7,648 nt of DNA from a virus. Its lineage: Duplodnaviria; Heunggongvirae; Uroviricota; Caudoviricetes. The DNA lies in IMG/VR virus record IMGVR_UViG_3300014721_000007, positions 1 through 7,648 of that record. One strand, written 5' to 3'. Of the stretch, positions 3,681 through 7,648 are shown one piece after another (positions within the stretch are counted from its first letter, which is position 1; every line of letters starts with the position of its first letter). The notes beneath the pieces were generated by a model. The model saw only the letters and a list, made by a program, of their open reading frames with translations, did no database searches and had not been told where the DNA came from. The translations under genes were made by a program, and so were the position numbers.

Positions 3681-3901
3681 GCTGCACCTCCGAGATGCTT
3701 CATGTTTTTTCCGGAGCGAAAGGCTATAAGCGGCATACTGACGCGGTAATTACGGCCCAGCGGTTCACAAACCACCTTCTGACATTCACGGTCAACCAGG
3801 CTAACACGTAGAACATGCCCTGCAGGCGTGGTGTACCACTGACCGGGGCGAGGACAACGGAAAGTCTGATTGGTAAATCGTTTGAAAATATTCCGGATCA
3901 T
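3677..3901 (-). CDS. Hypothetical small protein (74 aa)
   Basis: ORF bracketed by ATGA start/stop overlaps with both neighbours (3898-3901 and 3677-3680), which supports translation. No family recognised. Confidence 0.45.
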   Translation of the reverse strand: MIRNIFKRFTNQTFRCPRPGQWYTTPAGHVLRVSLVDRECQKVVCEPLGRNYRVSMPLIAFRSGKNMKHLGGAA

Positions 3902-5046
3902 TTGCGCCCCCTTACCTCTGAAGAGTTCAGCGACGAATGAATAAGACGGGCAAGAAATGCCGCATCGTTAATTCGGTCATACAGACTTACAGCCAGAGGT
4001 GATTCAGCTTTTTCCAGCATGGGATAAAGCTGCTGCAACCAGACCTGATGAATTGATGAAATGTAGGAATAGAGAACGCTGGCGTTATGTGCAACGTCGC
4101 TCGGTACAGCGGGCTTTGAAAGCTGTTTCTCCATCTGGTTAAAGGCATTGATGTATGCCTCTTTGAACTGGGCAGCACGTTTACCCGTGAAACCCATAGC
4201 AAGAAACGCAAAGCCATCGCGGGTTATTTGATAGCAAGGTAGTTTGCGGCCTGAAGCGTCGGTATAACCACTTAACACAAAATTGTGTTCAGCAAATTCA
4301 GCGGAGCATTCAAGGTTTCGAATTCTATCTAAAACCCGCTCGTGCCGTTTAGTAAAGTAGTTAGCAACTGCAAGAGATGTAGTGACAGCACGACCATTGA
4401 TGATCGTGATTTCAGGGTGAACAAAGGTTGGGATCGTAGCCATAATGGCAGCCTCGGTAGCAAGCTTAAAAAACTCACCACATAAGACGCCAATCATAGA
4501 GGTGGTGAGACGTACAGAGTTGGCGTTACCGGCGGCTACCCTTACCGGCGCATCTTGCGATGCCCCTGTACGCCCCACCATAATTTGGGCGTGACAAAAT
4601 AATGCGTACAAAAAAACCGCATCTACGCGGTTGTACGCGGTAGCCTTCTCCAGGACGCCAATCCCGGCACCCGCTTTATAAGGTGCCTGAACAGTGTAAC
4701 GTCCCGGAATGGCAGAATCAATGTGCTGGTGGTCCTTCACACTCAACAAAATCACGCCTGAATTTCCACAAAGGACTAAAGCACTCATGCGGGTAGTCTT
4801 TGCGAAGATAGATAACGCGCTGTGTTTCTGGCTCCCAACGAATAACATGGACATAAAGCCCTCTTCCGTCACGAAACCAGCGGTTAAGTTCCTGCACAAC
4901 TCGCCCCCCACAGTCAGGTAAAGTTCTCTGTGGTTACTTACAGCCAGGTGATTTGGTAATCTGCATTCATGCCGTAACAACAGGTGTTCAGCGACGCTGA
5001 CCACCAGCTGTTGCGACAAACGGTTATTTGCCGTTAAACTGTTCAT
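3898..5046 (-). CDS. Rha-family phage regulatory protein with an about 200-aa N-terminal extension of unknown function
   Basis: Residues about 205-310 (INGRAVTTSLAVANYFTKRHERVLDRIRNLECS...LPCYQITRDGFAFLAMGFTGKRAAQFKEAYINAFNQME) match the Phage_pRha domain. The start ATG at 5046 forms an ATGA overlap with the upstream stop, and the frame stays open for 382 codons. Confidence 0.7.
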   Translation of the reverse strand: MNSLTANNRLSQQLVVSVAEHLLLRHECRLPNHLAVSNHRELYLTVGGELCRNLTAGFVTEEGFMSMLFVGSQKHSALSIFAKTTRMSALVLCGNSGVILLSVKDHQHIDSAIPGRYTVQAPYKAGAGIGVLEKATAYNRVDAVFLYALFCHAQIMVGRTGASQDAPVRVAAGNANSVRLTTSMIGVLCGEFFKLATEAAIMATIPTFVHPEITIINGRAVTTSLAVANYFTKRHERVLDRIRNLECSAEFAEHNFVLSGYTDASGRKLPCYQITRDGFAFLAMGFTGKRAAQFKEAYINAFNQMEKQLSKPAVPSDVAHNASVLYSYISSIHQVWLQQLYPMLEKAESPLAVSLYDRINDAAFLARLIHSSLNSSEVRGRK

Positions 5047-5639
5047 GCGTTAGTTTCTCCACAGACACAAAACGCCACGACGCCCGGAGCTGCACACTCG
5101 CGGGCGTCACTCTTTTCTGGAGCGCAAAAGATTTTGTAGACCAGTGCTGCATGCTCCTGGAGCTTCGAAATTGACAGATACAACTCATCATTAATTGCTG
5201 TCTGCTCGTGTGGCTCCACTACCCCATCTTCGATTGCCGAACGAATCTGCTTTGAGTAACTCCCGATCTGTTCGATGACTTCCAGCAGGCGCTGGTTTAT
5301 ATCGGCGTTCTCTACTTCCTCAATTTCAGGAAGCGATACAAACACCCCACCAGCAGACTGTGCGACAGCATCCGCAATGTAGTGAGTGCCAGCCGCGCGC
5401 TGTAAAATCATTGCCCATCCCAGCGGGAAAATCTGATCGCCATCTGCACGAAGGCGGTTGAATAAAGCGTTCTCTGTTACATCCAGCCACTCAGCAGCTT
5501 CAGCGTAACCCCCCGGCAACGCCGCGATAGTTTTTCTGACAGCTTTCACGTACCACTCAGGCTGTTTTTCTACTTTCCAGTGATGCTTACCCACGGTTAG
5601 CCTCATCGTTCTGTGGTTTCTGTTAATCGATTTATCCAT
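5043..5639 (-). CDS. Putative CII-like / YdaT-family regulatory protein
   Basis: Sits directly downstream of the Cro-like gene. HTH-like segment GGYAEAAEWLDVTENALFNRLRADGDQ. The ATG at 5639 overlaps the cro stop (ATGGATAA) and is preferred; alternative starts are the GTG at 5708 and the ATGs at 5651 and 5606. Family assignment is from memory only. Confidence 0.45.
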   Translation of the reverse strand: MDKSINRNHRTMRLTVGKHHWKVEKQPEWYVKAVRKTIAALPGGYAEAAEWLDVTENALFNRLRADGDQIFPLGWAMILQRAAGTHYIADAVAQSAGGVFVSLPEIEEVENADINQRLLEVIEQIGSYSKQIRSAIEDGVVEPHEQTAINDELYLSISKLQEHAALVYKIFCAPEKSDARECAAPGVVAFCVCGETNA

Positions 5640-5832
5640 TAGATTTTTCATAAAGCTCAGGTTTAAATGGCAACCGTCCGCAAGTTCTATATGCAGCTTC
5701 TGCTGCACGTCCTTTTGGAATTAACTGGCCCGGACGGTTTCGCCACTGATAAACGGCTTCAGTTGTTATGCCGAAAAAAGCAGCAACTTTCTCAATACTG
5801 CCGAAGTAGCTTTCGATATCGTCAGTTGTCAT
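5632..5832 (-). CDS. Cro-like (YdaS-type) HTH repressor
   Basis: 66 aa, divergent from the CI-like gene. Motif LA..LGVS..AVSQW-like segment (VAAFFGITTEAVYQWRNRPGQLIP). GGAGG Shine-Dalgarno 4-5 nt upstream of the ATG at 5832. Confidence 0.75.
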   Translation of the reverse strand: MTTDDIESYFGSIEKVAAFFGITTEAVYQWRNRPGQLIPKGRAAEAAYRTCGRLPFKPELYEKSNG

Positions 5833-5929: not shown

Positions 5930-6556
5930 ATGGAAACGGTTGGTCAGCGTATAAAAGCTCTGAGAAGAGTTACCAGAACGTCCCAGAAAGAATTGGGTAA
6001 ATTTTGTGGAGTAAGCGACGTTGCTGTGGGGTACTGGGAGAAAGACATCAATACCCCTGGTGGGGAGGCACTTTCGAAATTAGCGAAGTTCTTCAATACG
6101 TCAATAGATTACATTCTTTATGGTGCTGAGTTTGAAGGCAAACTCGTCACAAACATGCGCAGAGTTCCTGTAATATCGTGGGTTCAGGCTGGGCAGTTTA
6201 CTGAGTGCAGGGCAGCAGAAGTGTTTAGTGAAGTGGACAAGTGGGTAGATACATCATTAAAGATTGGTGATAACTCATTTGCATTAGAGGTTAAAGGTGA
6301 CTCCATGACTAACCCTAATGGCCTCCCAACAATACCAGAAGGCGCAACAGTGATTGTAGATCCAGATGCAGAACCTCGTCATGGAAAAATAGTAATCGCT
6401 CGACTTGATGGAACAAACGAAGCTACAGTAAAAAAATTAGTCATCGATGGCCCTCAAAAGTTTTTAGTGCCATTAAATCCTCGGTATCCCAACATCCCTA
6501 TCAATGGTAATTGCCTTATCATTGGTGTAGTCAAAGGAGTTCAATACGAACTCTAA
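5930..6556 (+). CDS. CI-like phage repressor (HTH_XRE N-terminal domain plus S24 LexA-type autopeptidase domain)
   Basis: 208 aa. N-terminal HTH (QKELGKFCGVSDVAVGYWEKD), Ala-Gly cleavage motif (VQAGQF), S24 catalytic serine in GDSMTNP and lysine in VKKLV. Confidence 0.9.
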   Translation: METVGQRIKALRRVTRTSQKELGKFCGVSDVAVGYWEKDINTPGGEALSKLAKFFNTSIDYILYGAEFEGKLVTNMRRVPVISWVQAGQFTECRAAEVFSEVDKWVDTSLKIGDNSFALEVKGDSMTNPNGLPTIPEGATVIVDPDAEPRHGKIVIARLDGTNEATVKKLVIDGPQKFLVPLNPRYPNIPINGNCLIIGVVKGVQYEL

Positions 6557-6589
6557 GACCTCTCTTCTCTAACTAAGGCACCGAACTAA

Positions 6590-6626
6590 GAAAAGTTTGG
6601 TGTTTTCTCTTGCTATAATAACTAAG
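6590..6626 (+). promoter_or_regulatory. Candidate promoter with extended -10 (TGcTATAAT at 6611-6619) flanked by AACTAAG repeats
   Basis: TGnTATAAT is a perfect extended -10; the -35 is poor. AACTAAG heptamers lie at 6571, 6584 and 6620, with the last one at the predicted transcription start. Oriented toward the 6763 ORF. Confidence 0.35.
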
Positions 6627-6762
6627 TTAAGTTAGATTTTATATCAAAGATAACGAACAGGCAGGACGCCCACGAAGTAGCCGCCTGGGGCATATGAAGT
6701 CCAGGATGATTCGTTGAGTCATGTTGTGCCACTATGCACTCATGTTAAAGCAGGTGTATGAA

Positions 6763-7038
6763 ATGAAAGTCCAGATTTTAAACAATAACTGTGAAGTCGT
6801 TTGGTCATACGACATAGCCGCCCCTGTAGATCAGAGCGGCGATAGCTGGACCAATGGGAAACATCAGATTATGGCTGGAGTTGTGTTCTCTTTACGCCGT
6901 GCTTTGGAACAGGCTGAAGTATTTCCATCAGACCCTGAATGGAAATGGCCTTTTTCTATTTGTCCAAATTCGGAGAGTACATTTCAGAAAATTGGTCAGA
7001 AAGTCGCACTCGAAGAGCATCAGCCAACTGTTTCCTGA
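6763..7038 (+). CDS. Hypothetical protein (91 aa), co-oriented with and downstream of cI
   Basis: ATG at 6763 preceded by AGGTG at a 6-nt spacing. No family recognised. Its 3' 83 bp overlap the convergent ORF 6956..7201, so at most one may be real over the overlap. Confidence 0.35.
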   Translation: MKVQILNNNCEVVWSYDIAAPVDQSGDSWTNGKHQIMAGVVFSLRRALEQAEVFPSDPEWKWPFSICPNSESTFQKIGQKVALEEHQPTVS

Positions 7039-7201
7039 TTTTTTCAGGTAACTCGTCGGCATCGCAGAAACAACAACGCTCGATCATGTTGAAAGCCGAT
7101 TCGTAGAACTGTTTCTGCTGAGTGTCGCTGAGACAGGAAAAGAGCGACGTTACGATGATTTTATTAATTGCATTATCAAGTTCTTTTTCATCAAAAGTCA
7201 T
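6956..7201 (-). CDS. Hypothetical protein (81 aa), convergent with cI
   Basis: ATG at 7201 preceded by AAGGA with an 8-nt spacer. Helix-like, acidic sequence with a CCFC motif. No family recognised. Confidence 0.4.
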   Translation of the reverse strand: MTFDEKELDNAINKIIVTSLFSCLSDTQQKQFYESAFNMIERCCFCDADELPEKIRKQLADALRVRLSDQFSEMYSPNLDK

Positions 7202-7454
7202 TTGATTTTCCTTTTATGTATACGGGCTTAAAAGGATACCACCGAGCCTGAAGTGGTGAAAAGACAGGCACATAACAGCTAAGTATTTTCAACCAAAGAG
7301 AATCCTTAGCGTTGTGGTGAATGCGGCTCAGCGCACGCGGGTTAAGGTTGAGGCTGACAGTCGACCTTCTGTGGATACCCACCCGTCTGGTGTGCAACCT
7401 TCGCCAGGCACCGGGAGGCACCCGGCACCACAACTTTATGCTGTGTGTAGTCCT

Positions 7455-7501
7455 GGCGGTACCAGTTTGTACCCTTGCTTCCGGCTGGTACCGTCCTTTT
7501 T
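7455..7501 (+). terminator. Terminator-like hairpin on the + strand
   Basis: Stem 7455-7465 pairs with 7485-7495 (core GGTACCAG / CTGGTACC, 11 bp including one G-U), 19-nt loop, followed by CTTTTT (7496-7501). No U tract on the - strand. Confidence 0.4.
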
Positions 7502-7502
7502 A

Positions 7503-7589
7503 CAAAACAGAGAAGAGCATCACCGGACGACGGGCTCATAACCCAATCCATCCGGGCGGCTGCCACCGCAGGTGTTCTTCTCTGTTTTG
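7503..7589. repeat. 14-bp perfect inverted repeat CAAAACAGAGAAGA / TCTTCTCTGTTTTG enclosing a 59-nt G+C-rich segment
   Basis: Arms at 7503-7516 and 7576-7589 are exact reverse complements. The stem is extensible by about 4 more pairs with G-U pairing in RNA. No credible ORF covers it. Confidence 0.85.
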
Positions 7590-7638
7590 TGGAGAAACTA
7601 ATCGGCCTTGCAGGGTCGATATGATGAGGAGCAGCAAA

Positions 7639-7648
7639 ATGGCTAACG
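7639..7648 (+). CDS. 5' end of a gene running off the window (only ATG GCT AAC visible)
   Basis: GAGGAG Shine-Dalgarno at 7626-7631 with a 7-nt spacer before the ATG at 7639. Product unknown; too little sequence to assign. Confidence 0.25.

What the first reader, a model, noticed from the sequence alone, without database searches (positions are those of the whole stretch)
6557..7201. cI-adjacent accessory locus: two convergent, overlapping small ORFs of unknown function
The slot immediately beside the repressor gene is where lambdoid phages carry lysogen-expressed accessory or exclusion genes (rexAB in lambda). Here it holds a 91-aa + strand ORF (6763-7038) and an 81-aa - strand ORF (6956-7201). 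Each has a credible Shine-Dalgarno, they converge and overlap by 83 bp, and neither resembles a family I recognise. They could be a lysogenic-conversion or anti-phage module, a convergent toxin/antisense-type pair, or one may be spurious.
Basis: inference. Interest (0 to 1): 0.55.

Follow-up and report, generated by a model that had tools for sequence, protein, structure and literature searches.

The report
Prophage gene pair with antisense switch
Two small, tail-to-tail overlapping genes next to a prophage repressor are both real; they sit where phages lambda and P22 keep N and the exclusion gene sieB, and the reverse gene carries a copy of P22's 'sas' antisense-RNA switch, so it is probably a prophage-expressed gene that the phage turns off when it goes lytic.

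Summary
In five lineages about 67% identical in DNA, each frame stays open. The distance between the two start codons is always 439 nt. Each frame is under purifying selection outside the overlap (pN/pS 0.33 and 0.28).

The locus is not a rexAB-type slot. A cI terminator, a promoter and a third copy of the oR operator motif lie between cI and the ORFs. The + ORF is therefore the first early-left (pL) gene, in the position of N. The - ORF converges on it, in the position of sieB.

Just upstream of the - ORF start lies a 35-nt element 94% identical to the 3' domain of P22's sas antisense RNA. The same element sits unannotated upstream of lambda sieB. In more than 120 viral contigs it abuts reverse-oriented genes of many families.

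My best reading: the - ORF is expressed from the prophage, and pL-derived antisense RNA silences it during lytic growth. The + ORF may be its protein-level antagonist. It is never found without the - ORF, whereas the - ORF does occur alone.

The function of both proteins is unknown: sequence searches for both, and fold searches for the - ORF, found nothing. No expression data were available.

The parts
5930..6556 (+). cI-type repressor (HTH_3 + Peptidase_S24), 208 aa; context for the finding
   Evidence: Pfam PF00717 at 9e-28 and PF01381 at 1e-9. PGAP calls it a LexA family protein.
6579..6609 (+). Intrinsic-terminator-like hairpin ending the cI transcript (CACCGAAC/GTTTGGTG followed by a T-run)
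   Evidence: Read from the sequence. SfV has an annotated terminator at the same position after its own cI. The consensus scan did not list it: its T-run does not meet the scan's rule (5 T within 8 bases).
6611..6660 (+). Early-left promoter/operator region (pL/oL analogue). It holds an extended -10 TGcTATAAT (6611-6619), the operator CTAAGTTAAGTTAG (6622-6635), and GATAAC (6649-6654), which aligns with lambda pL's -10 GATACT
   Evidence: CTAA-N6-TTAG occurs 3 times in the window (two copies in oR, one here) against 0.06 expected. Repeat families D1 and D2 show the same. Homology with SfV, which has a different cI, starts at 6652. SfV has TTGACA-16-CATAAT and its own TGTACC operators at this spot. 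Which of the two -10 elements is used is not resolved.
6657..6715 (+). Conserved 5' leader of the + ORF transcript. ACAGGCAGGACGCC resembles the start of the lambda and P22 pL RNAs, and the hairpin CCUGG(6684-6688)/CCAGG(6701-6705) covaries
   Evidence: The leader is nearly identical in L003, L095, L092 and L098, although the proteins have diverged. Stem variants are CCCGG/CCGGG, CCAGC/GCTGG and CCGGT/ACCGG.
6763..7038 (+). + ORF, 91 aa, acidic and soluble. It is the first gene downstream of pL (the N position). It matches phrog_3195, is SfV orf33 and is WP_021563905
   Evidence: pN/pS is 0.33. Homologues are 50-68% identical and all start MKVQ. PGAP and SfV both annotate it. pI is 4.95. The AF2 model is unusable, pLDDT 44.
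6956..7201 (-). - ORF, 81 aa, acidic, predicted three-helix bundle. It is reverse-oriented (the sieB position) and matches phrog_3311
   Evidence: pN/pS is 0.28. Homologues occur in Salmonella, Klebsiella and Yersinia. Only 21 hits were found among 1.84 billion cluster representatives. AF2 gives pLDDT 75 with helices H5-21, H26-47 and H53-75.
7196..7285 (+). sas-like antisense RNA region. Its 5' part is complementary to the - ORF start codon and SD. It then has hairpin HP2 (CCUUUUA 7210-7216 / UAAAAGG 7229-7235) and a conserved 3' domain (S1 ACCAC 7238-7242 / GUGGU 7253-7257; S2 GCCUG 7246-7250 / CAGGC 7265-7269; A-rich 7258-7264). The ends are set by analogy with P22 sas and were not measured
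   Evidence: The 3' domain is 94% identical over 35 nt to P22 (AF217253 11401-11435) and to lambda (34394-34428). The P22 stretch lies inside the RNA-seq-defined sas RNA, 11387-11513 (PMC13397905). On the alignment, 96.6% of cells pair and 3 pairs change on both sides (1 of 500 shuffles). A hairpin abuts the domain in 66 of 79 contexts. It is more stable on this strand in 67 of 78 contexts. SfV's authors annotated this stretch as a 'terminator' (H41).
7226..7262 (-). Predicted - ORF promoter, fused to the conserved element: -35-like TTTTCA (7262-7257), 18-nt spacer, extended -10 TGgTATCCT (7241-7233), predicted start near 7226
   Evidence: Where the cargo start codon lies 34-41 nt from the element, 35 of 38 cassettes carry GTGG-N-AT..T. 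Where it lies further away, only 2 of 28 do. The second group includes sieB, whose promoter is annotated downstream of the element. This is inference; no start-site data exist.

Best explanation
The 6557-7290 stretch is the early-left end of the immunity region of an SfV/CPS-53-like lambdoid prophage. It is laid out like lambda and P22: cI, terminator, pL/oL, leader, first pL gene, then a gene pointing the other way, then a sas-type antisense element.

Shown here:
- Both ORFs are conserved protein-coding genes.
- They form a unit of fixed geometry.
- The unit lies downstream of a repressor-controlled promoter.
- The - ORF start abuts an element homologous to the 3' domain of P22 sas RNA.

Inferred:
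- In a lysogen, pL is repressed and the + ORF is silent.
- The - ORF is transcribed from its own extended -10 promoter, which overlaps the conserved element.
- The - ORF makes a small soluble helical protein that benefits the lysogen. The most likely benefit is interference with incoming phages, as with SieB.
- When pL fires (on induction, or from an incoming phage of the same type), its transcript first encodes the + ORF. It then runs antisense across the whole - ORF.
- That transcript yields a stable sas-like RNA whose anti-SD arm blocks translation of the - ORF.
- The + ORF protein, made first, neutralises - ORF protein that is already present. Esc plays this role for SieB in P22.
For: Both genes are real:
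- Each frame is under purifying selection outside the overlap, and the ATG-to-ATG spacing is a constant 439 nt in five lineages.
- The spacing is 437-445 nt in still more distant pairs.

pL/oL lies between cI and the ORFs.

The layout matches annotated P22 and lambda, where gene 24/N converges on sieB.

The sas link:
- The conserved element matches P22 and lambda DNA.
- In P22 the match lies inside the sas RNA sequence found by RNA-seq, which starts 5 nt inside sieB and covers its SD and ATG.
- The same element sits upstream of a Pfam SieB gene in L098.

The hairpin next to the element:
- It is kept in 66 of 79 contexts, with about 45 different arm sequences.
- Its 5' arm is the anti-SD.
- It is more stable on the pL-sense strand in 67 of 78 contexts, p = 8e-10.

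Promoter inference.

No + strand terminator-like site lies between the + ORF stop and the element.

Asymmetric dependence between the genes:
- 114 pairs were found and no + ORF alone; the - ORF occurs alone in L227 and L229.
- In L101 the pair sits away from any repressor, between Bro-N/Fic-Phd genes and the holin. The - ORF is still antisense to the flow of phage transcription there.

Weak support for lysogen expression of genes in this slot: a family relative of the alternative cassette's reverse gene (ECs1072) gave a growth-phase-dependent signal in uninduced O157 Sakai.
Against: - No transcript, start-site or protein data exist for this locus.
- The - ORF promoter and the ends of the sas-like RNA are predictions.
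- Neither protein resembles any defence, exclusion, toxin or antitoxin family; fold searches for the - ORF model also found nothing.
- The - ORF is acidic and soluble. SieB is reported to be membrane-associated (background knowledge; not checked here).
- Any interaction between the two proteins is untested. Their co-inheritance could follow simply from physical overlap and from shared recombination flanks, since N and sieB are also packed tail to tail.
- Covariation in the conserved 3' domain rests on only three double changes. The sequences compared are not phylogenetically independent.
- The two distant lineages where the - ORF stands alone lack the sas-like element.
Confidence: 0.5

Rival explanations
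1. The two genes are functionally unrelated and merely packed tail to tail, as N and sieB are in lambda and P22. They travel together because they overlap physically. They also lie between two conserved recombination flanks: the pL leader and the sas 3' domain. The + ORF would be an ordinary early gene. The - ORF would be an independent accessory gene (moron) under sas-type control.
For: - Lambda N and sieB abut stop-to-stop, and in P22 gene 24 and sieB lie 20 nt apart.
- The whole cassette is swapped between conserved flanks for a different convergent pair, 68 aa and 144 aa.
- The - ORF occurs alone in L227 and L229.
- The overlapping tails vary in length and show no extra nucleotide constraint: 0.33 differences per site, against 0.30-0.32 elsewhere.
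Against: - The + ORF is never seen without the - ORF in 114 occurrences.
- The pair, with its 437-445-nt geometry, survives 30-50% protein divergence. It also survived a move to a different genome region that lacks the pL leader.
Confidence: 0.28
2. The logic is reversed. The + ORF is an early lytic effector, such as a host-takeover or kil-like protein, that harms the cell. The - ORF is a lysogen-expressed antidote that buffers leaky pL expression. The sas-like RNA removes the antidote once lytic growth starts.
For: - The same architecture and antisense logic fit this reading.
- An antidote can survive as an orphan, as in L227 and L229.
- The + ORF is the first pL gene.
Against: - In the only characterised relative of the regulatory element, the reverse gene (sieB) is the effector.
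- The element precedes dozens of unrelated reverse-oriented genes, which fits cargo effectors better than dedicated antidotes.
- No toxin-like feature is seen in the + ORF.
Confidence: 0.14
3. The + ORF is an N-like antiterminator that acts on the conserved leader hairpin. The - ORF is incidental.
For: - The + ORF occupies the N position behind a conserved, covarying leader hairpin.
- Two strong terminator-like hairpins lie downstream, ahead of yfdP.
Against: - The + ORF has pI 4.95, 7 K+R and no arginine-rich motif. Lambda N has pI 11.0 and P22 gp24 has pI 10.2.
- No boxA or boxB is visible in the leader.
- The + ORF also occurs in the late-region context of L101, without the leader.
Confidence: 0.05
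4. One of the two ORFs is a chance reading frame on the strand opposite a real gene.
For: PGAP annotates only the + ORF. Chance ORFs of this size abound in the window.
Against: Each frame shows purifying selection in its non-overlapping part, while the opposite frame there does not. Both proteins are conserved at 30-68% identity across genera.
Confidence: 0.03

Closest known systems
P22 sieB / esc / sas superinfection-exclusion cassette (Ranade & Poteete 1993; P22 annotation BK000583)
   Same: - A reverse-oriented gene converges on the first pL gene.
- A homologous conserved RNA domain (94% over 35 nt) lies on the pL-sense strand just upstream of the reverse gene.
- The antisense RNA covers the reverse gene's SD and start codon.
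- The implied logic is the same: the prophage expresses the gene and the lytic phage silences it.
   Different: - The cargo protein is unrelated: 81 aa and soluble, with no PF14163 SieB domain.
- There is no evident internal Esc start.
- The cargo promoter appears fused to the element (36 nt to the ATG), rather than lying downstream of it (71 nt in P22).
- A dedicated, co-conserved partner gene (the + ORF) replaces N opposite it.
Lambda N-sieB arrangement
   Same: The order is the same: pL/oL, leader, first gene, convergent reverse gene, conserved element (34394-34428, unannotated), then further pL genes.
   Different: The + ORF is acidic and not N-like. No nut boxA or boxB is visible. Here the two genes overlap by 83 bp or more, instead of abutting.
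Lambda rexAB
   Same: Both are accessory genes next to the repressor gene in a lambdoid prophage.
   Different: rexAB lie between cI and oL and are co-transcribed with cI from pRM. Here a terminator, a promoter and an operator separate cI from the ORFs, so the module lies beyond pL/oL.
Prophage defence genes with cognate self-immunity (e.g. BstA in BTP1; from my own knowledge of Owen et al. 2021)
   Same: Both are repressor-proximal accessory loci whose host phage must escape its own system.
   Different: There is no sequence or fold similarity. Self-immunity here would come from an antisense RNA, possibly with a protein, rather than from a DNA element.
Type I toxin-antitoxin loci with convergent, 3'-overlapping transcripts
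   Same: Both involve convergent, overlapping transcription and antisense control of translation initiation.
   Different: Both partners here encode conserved soluble proteins. There is no small hydrophobic toxin.

Membership tests
sieB/sas-type exclusion cassette (P22, lambda) | A reverse-oriented gene converging on the first gene of the pL operon, just beyond pL/oL | tested here: met
   Window layout compared with annotated P22 and lambda.
sieB/sas-type exclusion cassette (P22, lambda) | A sas antisense RNA element on the pL-sense strand that covers the reverse gene's translation start | tested here: met
   35 nt at 94% identity to P22 and lambda. The P22 match lies inside the sequenced sas RNA. 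The adjacent anti-SD hairpin is conserved. Whether the RNA is actually made here was not measured.
sieB/sas-type exclusion cassette (P22, lambda) | The cargo protein is SieB (Pfam PF14163) | tested here: not met
   No Pfam, NCBIfam or PADLOC match for the - ORF. It has no hydrophobic segment: maximum KD19 is 0.80.
sieB/sas-type exclusion cassette (P22, lambda) | An in-frame internal product (Esc) that antagonises the full-length protein | tested here: inconclusive
   The - ORF is only 81 aa. It has internal Met39 and Met74, but no evidence for their use. I propose that the + ORF fills this role; this is untested.
sieB/sas-type exclusion cassette (P22, lambda) | An abortive-infection or exclusion phenotype against other phages | not testable with these tools
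   Needs plaque assays.
rexAB-type cI-operon accessory genes | Location between cI and oL/pL, co-transcribed with cI | tested here: not met
   A terminator (6579-6609), a promoter (6611-6619) and an operator (6622-6635) precede the ORFs. The same holds in SfV.
N-type antiterminators (for the + ORF) | A small, basic protein with an arginine-rich RNA-binding motif, plus nut boxA/boxB in the leader | tested here: not met
   pI is 4.95 against 10.2-11.0 for the N proteins. No boxA or boxB appears in the leader alignment.
Type II toxin-antitoxin pair | A co-directional two-gene operon with recognisable toxin and antitoxin domains that co-occur obligately | tested here: not met
   The genes are convergent. 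No domains were found. The - ORF occurs alone in two lineages.
PHROG families phrog_3195 (+ ORF) and phrog_3311 (- ORF) | A full-length profile match | tested here: met
   E = 3.8e-65 and 3.1e-55, both full length. Both families are of unknown function.

The most novel reading that the evidence does not exclude
The 3' domain of P22 sas RNA may be a portable regulatory adaptor. Lambdoid phages would attach it to dozens of unrelated reverse-oriented, prophage-expressed genes, so that any such gene is switched off automatically when the phage's own early transcription starts. On this reading the present module is a previously unrecognised three-part system: an 81-aa helical effector, a sas-like antisense RNA, and a dedicated early-expressed protein antagonist (the + ORF) that stands in for Esc.
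Probability: 0.27. Interest if true: 0.72.

Novelty: new variant of a known kind. Interest (0 to 1): 0.6.

Why it matters
- It moves an 'unknown ORF pair' into a well-defined regulatory frame, the N/sieB position under sas-type antisense control. That frame makes concrete, cheap predictions about who is expressed when.
- The - ORF is missing from RefSeq annotation, although the module is in 404 of 5,426 complete E. coli genomes.
- The sas element was characterised only in P22 in 1993. Here it turns up unannotated in lambda itself and next to many different cargo genes in Escherichia, Salmonella, Klebsiella and Shigella phages.
- If it really is a general self-immunity switch, it marks a whole set of candidate prophage-expressed exclusion or conversion genes. 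It would also explain how their own phages escape them.

Tried and rejected
Family searches
- Pfam, PADLOC and NCBIfam gave nothing significant for either protein.
- PHROGs gave only unknown-function families.

Structure searches
- PDB sequence profiles gave nothing.
- The AF2 model of the + ORF was unusable, pLDDT 44.
- Foldseek of the - ORF model against PDB and BFVD gave no hit below E = 1. Small helical bundles are uninformative in such searches.

Collection scans
- Two scans of genome contigs found no relatives.
- A viral-contig scan with the Salmonella - ORF found none.

Ideas dropped
- Zinc binding by the conserved CCxC motif: distant homologues lack it.
- An N-like role for the + ORF: rejected on composition.
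- The rex-like reading: rejected on promoter and operator placement.
- The element as a DNA operator: the spacing between its arms varies (loops of about 9 and 10 nt, 7 nt in the degenerate L101 copy), which fits an RNA hairpin better.
- The element as a - strand terminator: the T-run is weak and not conserved.

Other dead ends
- I looked for the module in O157 Sakai Sp1, hoping to use published transcriptomes. It is absent.
- Rfam has no family that covers the sas-like element.
- The original sas paper (PubMed 8339929) is not held.
- I could not find a convincing sigma-70 promoter for an independent sas-like transcript inside the - ORF. It may instead be processed from the pL transcript.

Full report
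WHAT THE WINDOW IS

The window is the immunity and early region of an SfV/CPS-53-like lambdoid prophage of E. coli. One near-identical copy sits at thrW, next to proA. The landmarks are:
- cro at 5632-5832 (-);
- a LexA/S24-type cI at 5930-6556 (+);
- yfdP starting at 7639 (+).

OBSERVATION

The two ORFs exist exactly as described: the + ORF at 6763-7038 (91 aa) and the - ORF at 6956-7201 (81 aa). Each has an SD-like sequence about 7 nt upstream, and they overlap by 83 bp. The window holds 83 ORFs of at least 30 aa, so the ORFs alone mean nothing. Conservation decides the matter.

ARE THEY GENES?

Protein searches found diverged homologues of both ORFs, 50-68% identical, in Escherichia, Salmonella, Klebsiella and Yersinia. 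They always came as a pair.

In five lineages about 67% identical in DNA, both frames stay open. The distance from the + ATG to the - ATG is exactly 439 nt, without a single indel.

Nei-Gojobori counts are:
- module nt 1-192: + frame pN/pS 0.33, with third positions the most variable; the - frame there gives 1.82;
- module nt 256-439: - frame 0.28; the + frame there gives more than 1.

Both are therefore protein-coding. The + ORF's last 7 codons in this window evolve as - frame sequence. Its stop codon drifts (91, 93 or 122 aa), and so does that of the - ORF (75-81 aa). The region where two conserved cores truly overlap is about 38 nt, and it shows no extra nucleotide constraint.

Further points on the two genes:
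- PGAP annotates only the + ORF. The module is present in 404 of 5,426 complete E. coli genomes.
- An exhaustive HMMER search found only 21 relatives of the - ORF among 1.84 billion cluster representatives, so the family is narrow.
- The - ORF is predicted to be a three-helix bundle (pLDDT 75). The + ORF model is unusable.
- Neither protein matches any named family or solved structure by sequence, and fold searches with the - ORF model found nothing.
- Both proteins are acidic and lack hydrophobic segments.

WHERE THEY SIT

That is not what the sequence shows. After the cI stop codon come, in order:
1. a terminator-like hairpin with a T-run (6579-6609);
2. a perfect extended -10, TGcTATAAT (6611-6619);
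3. the motif CTAA-N6-TTAG (6622-6635).

That motif otherwise occurs only twice in the window, both times between cro and cI. Three copies were found against 0.06 expected by chance.

Homology with SfV, which has a different cI, resumes at 6652. At the same place, SfV has its own terminator, a TTGACA-16-CATAAT promoter and repeats of its own operator motif.

The sequence that follows (6657 onward, ACAGGCAGGACGCC...) aligns with the first bases of the lambda and P22 pL transcripts. GATAAC (6649-6654) aligns with lambda pL's -10.

So pL/oL lies directly after cI, and the + ORF is the first early-left gene. In annotated P22 and lambda that position is held by gene 24/N, and the gene that converges on it from the other strand is sieB. 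The + ORF and - ORF replace N and sieB.

In phage vB_EcoM-689R6, and in SfIV, the same flanks hold another cassette instead: in 689R6 a convergent, overlapping pair of a 68-aa gene and a 144-aa gene, of which SfIV shows the 144-aa gene. The 144-aa gene belongs to the NCBIfam ECs1072 family.

THE ANTISENSE ELEMENT

The 70 nt upstream of the - ORF start are more conserved than the proteins. They are nearly identical in a lineage (L098) whose pair is among the most distant homologues found (- ORF member P0068, E = 1e-5).

A scan of viral contigs for the core of this element found more than 120 contigs and about 100 distinct contexts. In the bulk of them the element lies just upstream of the start codon and SD of a reverse-oriented gene, and these genes belong to many different families. 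One of those genes is a Pfam SieB gene.

BLAST finds the element in P22 (AF217253 11401-11435) and in lambda (34394-34428, upstream of sieB and unannotated), at 94% identity over 35 nt. A 2026 RNA-seq paper gives the sequence of P22 sas RNA, 11387-11513. That RNA starts 5 nt inside sieB, covers its SD and ATG, and ends just after this element (PMC13397905).

sas is the antisense RNA that switches sieB translation from SieB to Esc, so that P22 escapes its own exclusion system (reviews read; the original paper is not held).

Structure of the element:
- The conserved 3' domain can form two interleaved helices, ACCAC/GUGGU and GCCUG/CAGGC. On the alignment, 96.6% of cells pair, and three pairs show changes on both sides (1 of 500 shuffles reach this). 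This support is modest, because the element hardly varies.
- The loop lengths are canonical for an H-type pseudoknot only on the pL-sense strand. This is my reading of the sequence, not a tool result.
- Immediately 5' of the domain there is a hairpin in 66 of 79 distinct contexts, against a mean of 27.6 in shuffled controls. It uses about 45 different arm sequences.
- The 5' arm of that hairpin is usually the complement of the cargo gene's SD.
- The hairpin is more stable on the pL-sense strand in 67 of 78 contexts (p = 8e-10) and has twice as many G-U pairs there.

These features point to an RNA made from the + strand, that is, a sas-like RNA.

Promoter of the - ORF:
- Where the cargo start codon is only 34-41 nt from the element, as here, 35 of 38 cassettes carry TGGTATNNT at the end of the element. 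Only 2 of 28 long-spacing cassettes do. In P22 sieB, a long-spacing case, the promoter is annotated downstream of the element.
- I therefore predict an extended -10 promoter for the - ORF at 7241-7233 (- strand), with a transcription start near 7226.

IS THE PAIR A UNIT?

The + ORF never occurs alone. The - ORF stands alone in two distant lineages, L227 and L229, where it lies between the Q antiterminator and the holin.

In L101 the pair, again with a 439-nt span, lies away from any repressor, between Bro-N/Fic-Phd genes and the lysis genes. The - ORF is still antisense to the flow of phage transcription there. In L098 and L228 the spans are 445 and 437 nt.

Two cautions apply. Most of the 114 occurrences are near-identical copies. 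The loci were also collected through the - ORF or through the element, so the asymmetry is suggestive, not proven.

MECHANISM (INFERRED)

- In lysogens, cI shuts pL, so the + ORF is off. The - ORF is made from its own promoter.
- When pL fires, its RNA first encodes the + ORF and then runs antisense through the - ORF. No + strand terminator-like site intervenes.
- That RNA yields the sas-like RNA, which masks the - ORF SD and start codon.
- By analogy with SieB/Esc/sas, the - ORF would be an exclusion-type or otherwise lysogen-beneficial effector that the phage must silence. The + ORF would be a candidate protein-level antagonist.

Rival readings are listed separately: unrelated neighbours, a reversed effector/antidote logic, and an N-like + ORF. 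None can be excluded without experiments, except 'one ORF is spurious'.

NOVELTY

The proteins are uncharacterised. The sieB/sas paradigm is known, but only for P22 sieB. I found no paper that describes the sas 3' domain as a shared element in front of many different genes, or in lambda. The library searched holds few subscription-journal papers, so this is not proof of absence.

I classify the finding as a new variant of a known kind.

Noticed in passing
window 7289-7504 (+), then 7502-7590: A match to the STnc100/PasD family of prophage sRNAs (39.5 bits, below the gathering score of 47, E = 5e-6). It starts just after the sas-like element and ends in a hairpin with a T-run. It is followed by a 25-nt-arm inverted repeat with a T-run, ahead of yfdP. 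This would be two terminator-like structures in the pL operon of a phage with no visible N. A 2026 preprint links STnc100 and PasD.
   Followed up: partly
window 4498-4585 (-) and 4610-4686 (-): Matches above the gathering score to C4 antisense RNA (68.4 bits) and to isrK (60 bits). Both lie inside a 382-aa ORF (3898-5046, -). This suggests a P1/P7 c4-ant-like or Gifsy IsrK/AntQ-like antirepressor control module in the early-right operon.
   Followed up: no
lambda NC_001416 34394-34428; P22 BK000583 29653-29686 (L225 4654-4687); more than 120 IMG/VR contigs (L104-L223): The 3' domain of P22 sas RNA is conserved and unannotated in lambda, HK620, the P22-like phages and many Klebsiella, Salmonella and Shigella phages. 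It precedes reverse-oriented genes of many unrelated families, not only sieB.
   Followed up: partly
L007 1805-2417 (vB_EcoM-689R6); L008 1831-2265 (SfIV): In 689R6 the same cI and the same yfdP flank hold an alternative cassette: a 68-aa + gene (phrog_1744) converging on and overlapping a 144-aa - gene (phrog_5286, NCBIfam ECs1072 family). SfIV, which has a different cI, carries the same 144-aa gene in this slot. The cassette has a - strand terminator upstream of the + gene. The swap boundaries correspond to about window 6717 and 7237-7264.
   Followed up: partly
window 6684-6705 (+): A hairpin in the pL leader (CCUGG ... CCAGG, loop GGCAUAUGAAGU) shows several compensatory variants across lineages. 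A similar CACC-AUGAA-GGUG hairpin is present in the lambda pL leader, upstream of boxA. Its function is unknown.
   Followed up: partly
window 5050-5063 and 7588-7601: A perfect 14-nt inverted repeat places the same sequence, UGUGGAGAAACUAA, in both early transcripts: pR-sense near the end of the 221-aa ORF, and pL-sense just before yfdP. A nut-like pair of sites is conceivable, but a chance match is not unlikely (my rough estimate of the expectation is about 0.1).
   Followed up: no
L003 1552-2706: In a Salmonella prophage, a 384-aa protein with an HSDR_N domain (type I restriction enzyme R subunit N-terminus-like) lies between the repressor gene and the module, co-directional with the repressor. 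This is a candidate cargo for the true rex-type slot.
   Followed up: no
L005, L092, L095 (+ ORF called as 122 aa); RefSeq genomes: Gene callers treat the pair inconsistently. Some extend the + ORF through the antisense of the - ORF and drop the - ORF. PGAP omits the - ORF altogether. The - ORF family is therefore under-represented in protein databases.
   Followed up: yes
hits H132-H136: In several E. coli genomes only the - ORF end of the module (window about 7000-7258) survives, next to a phage tail protein gene. These look like recombination remnants.
   Followed up: no
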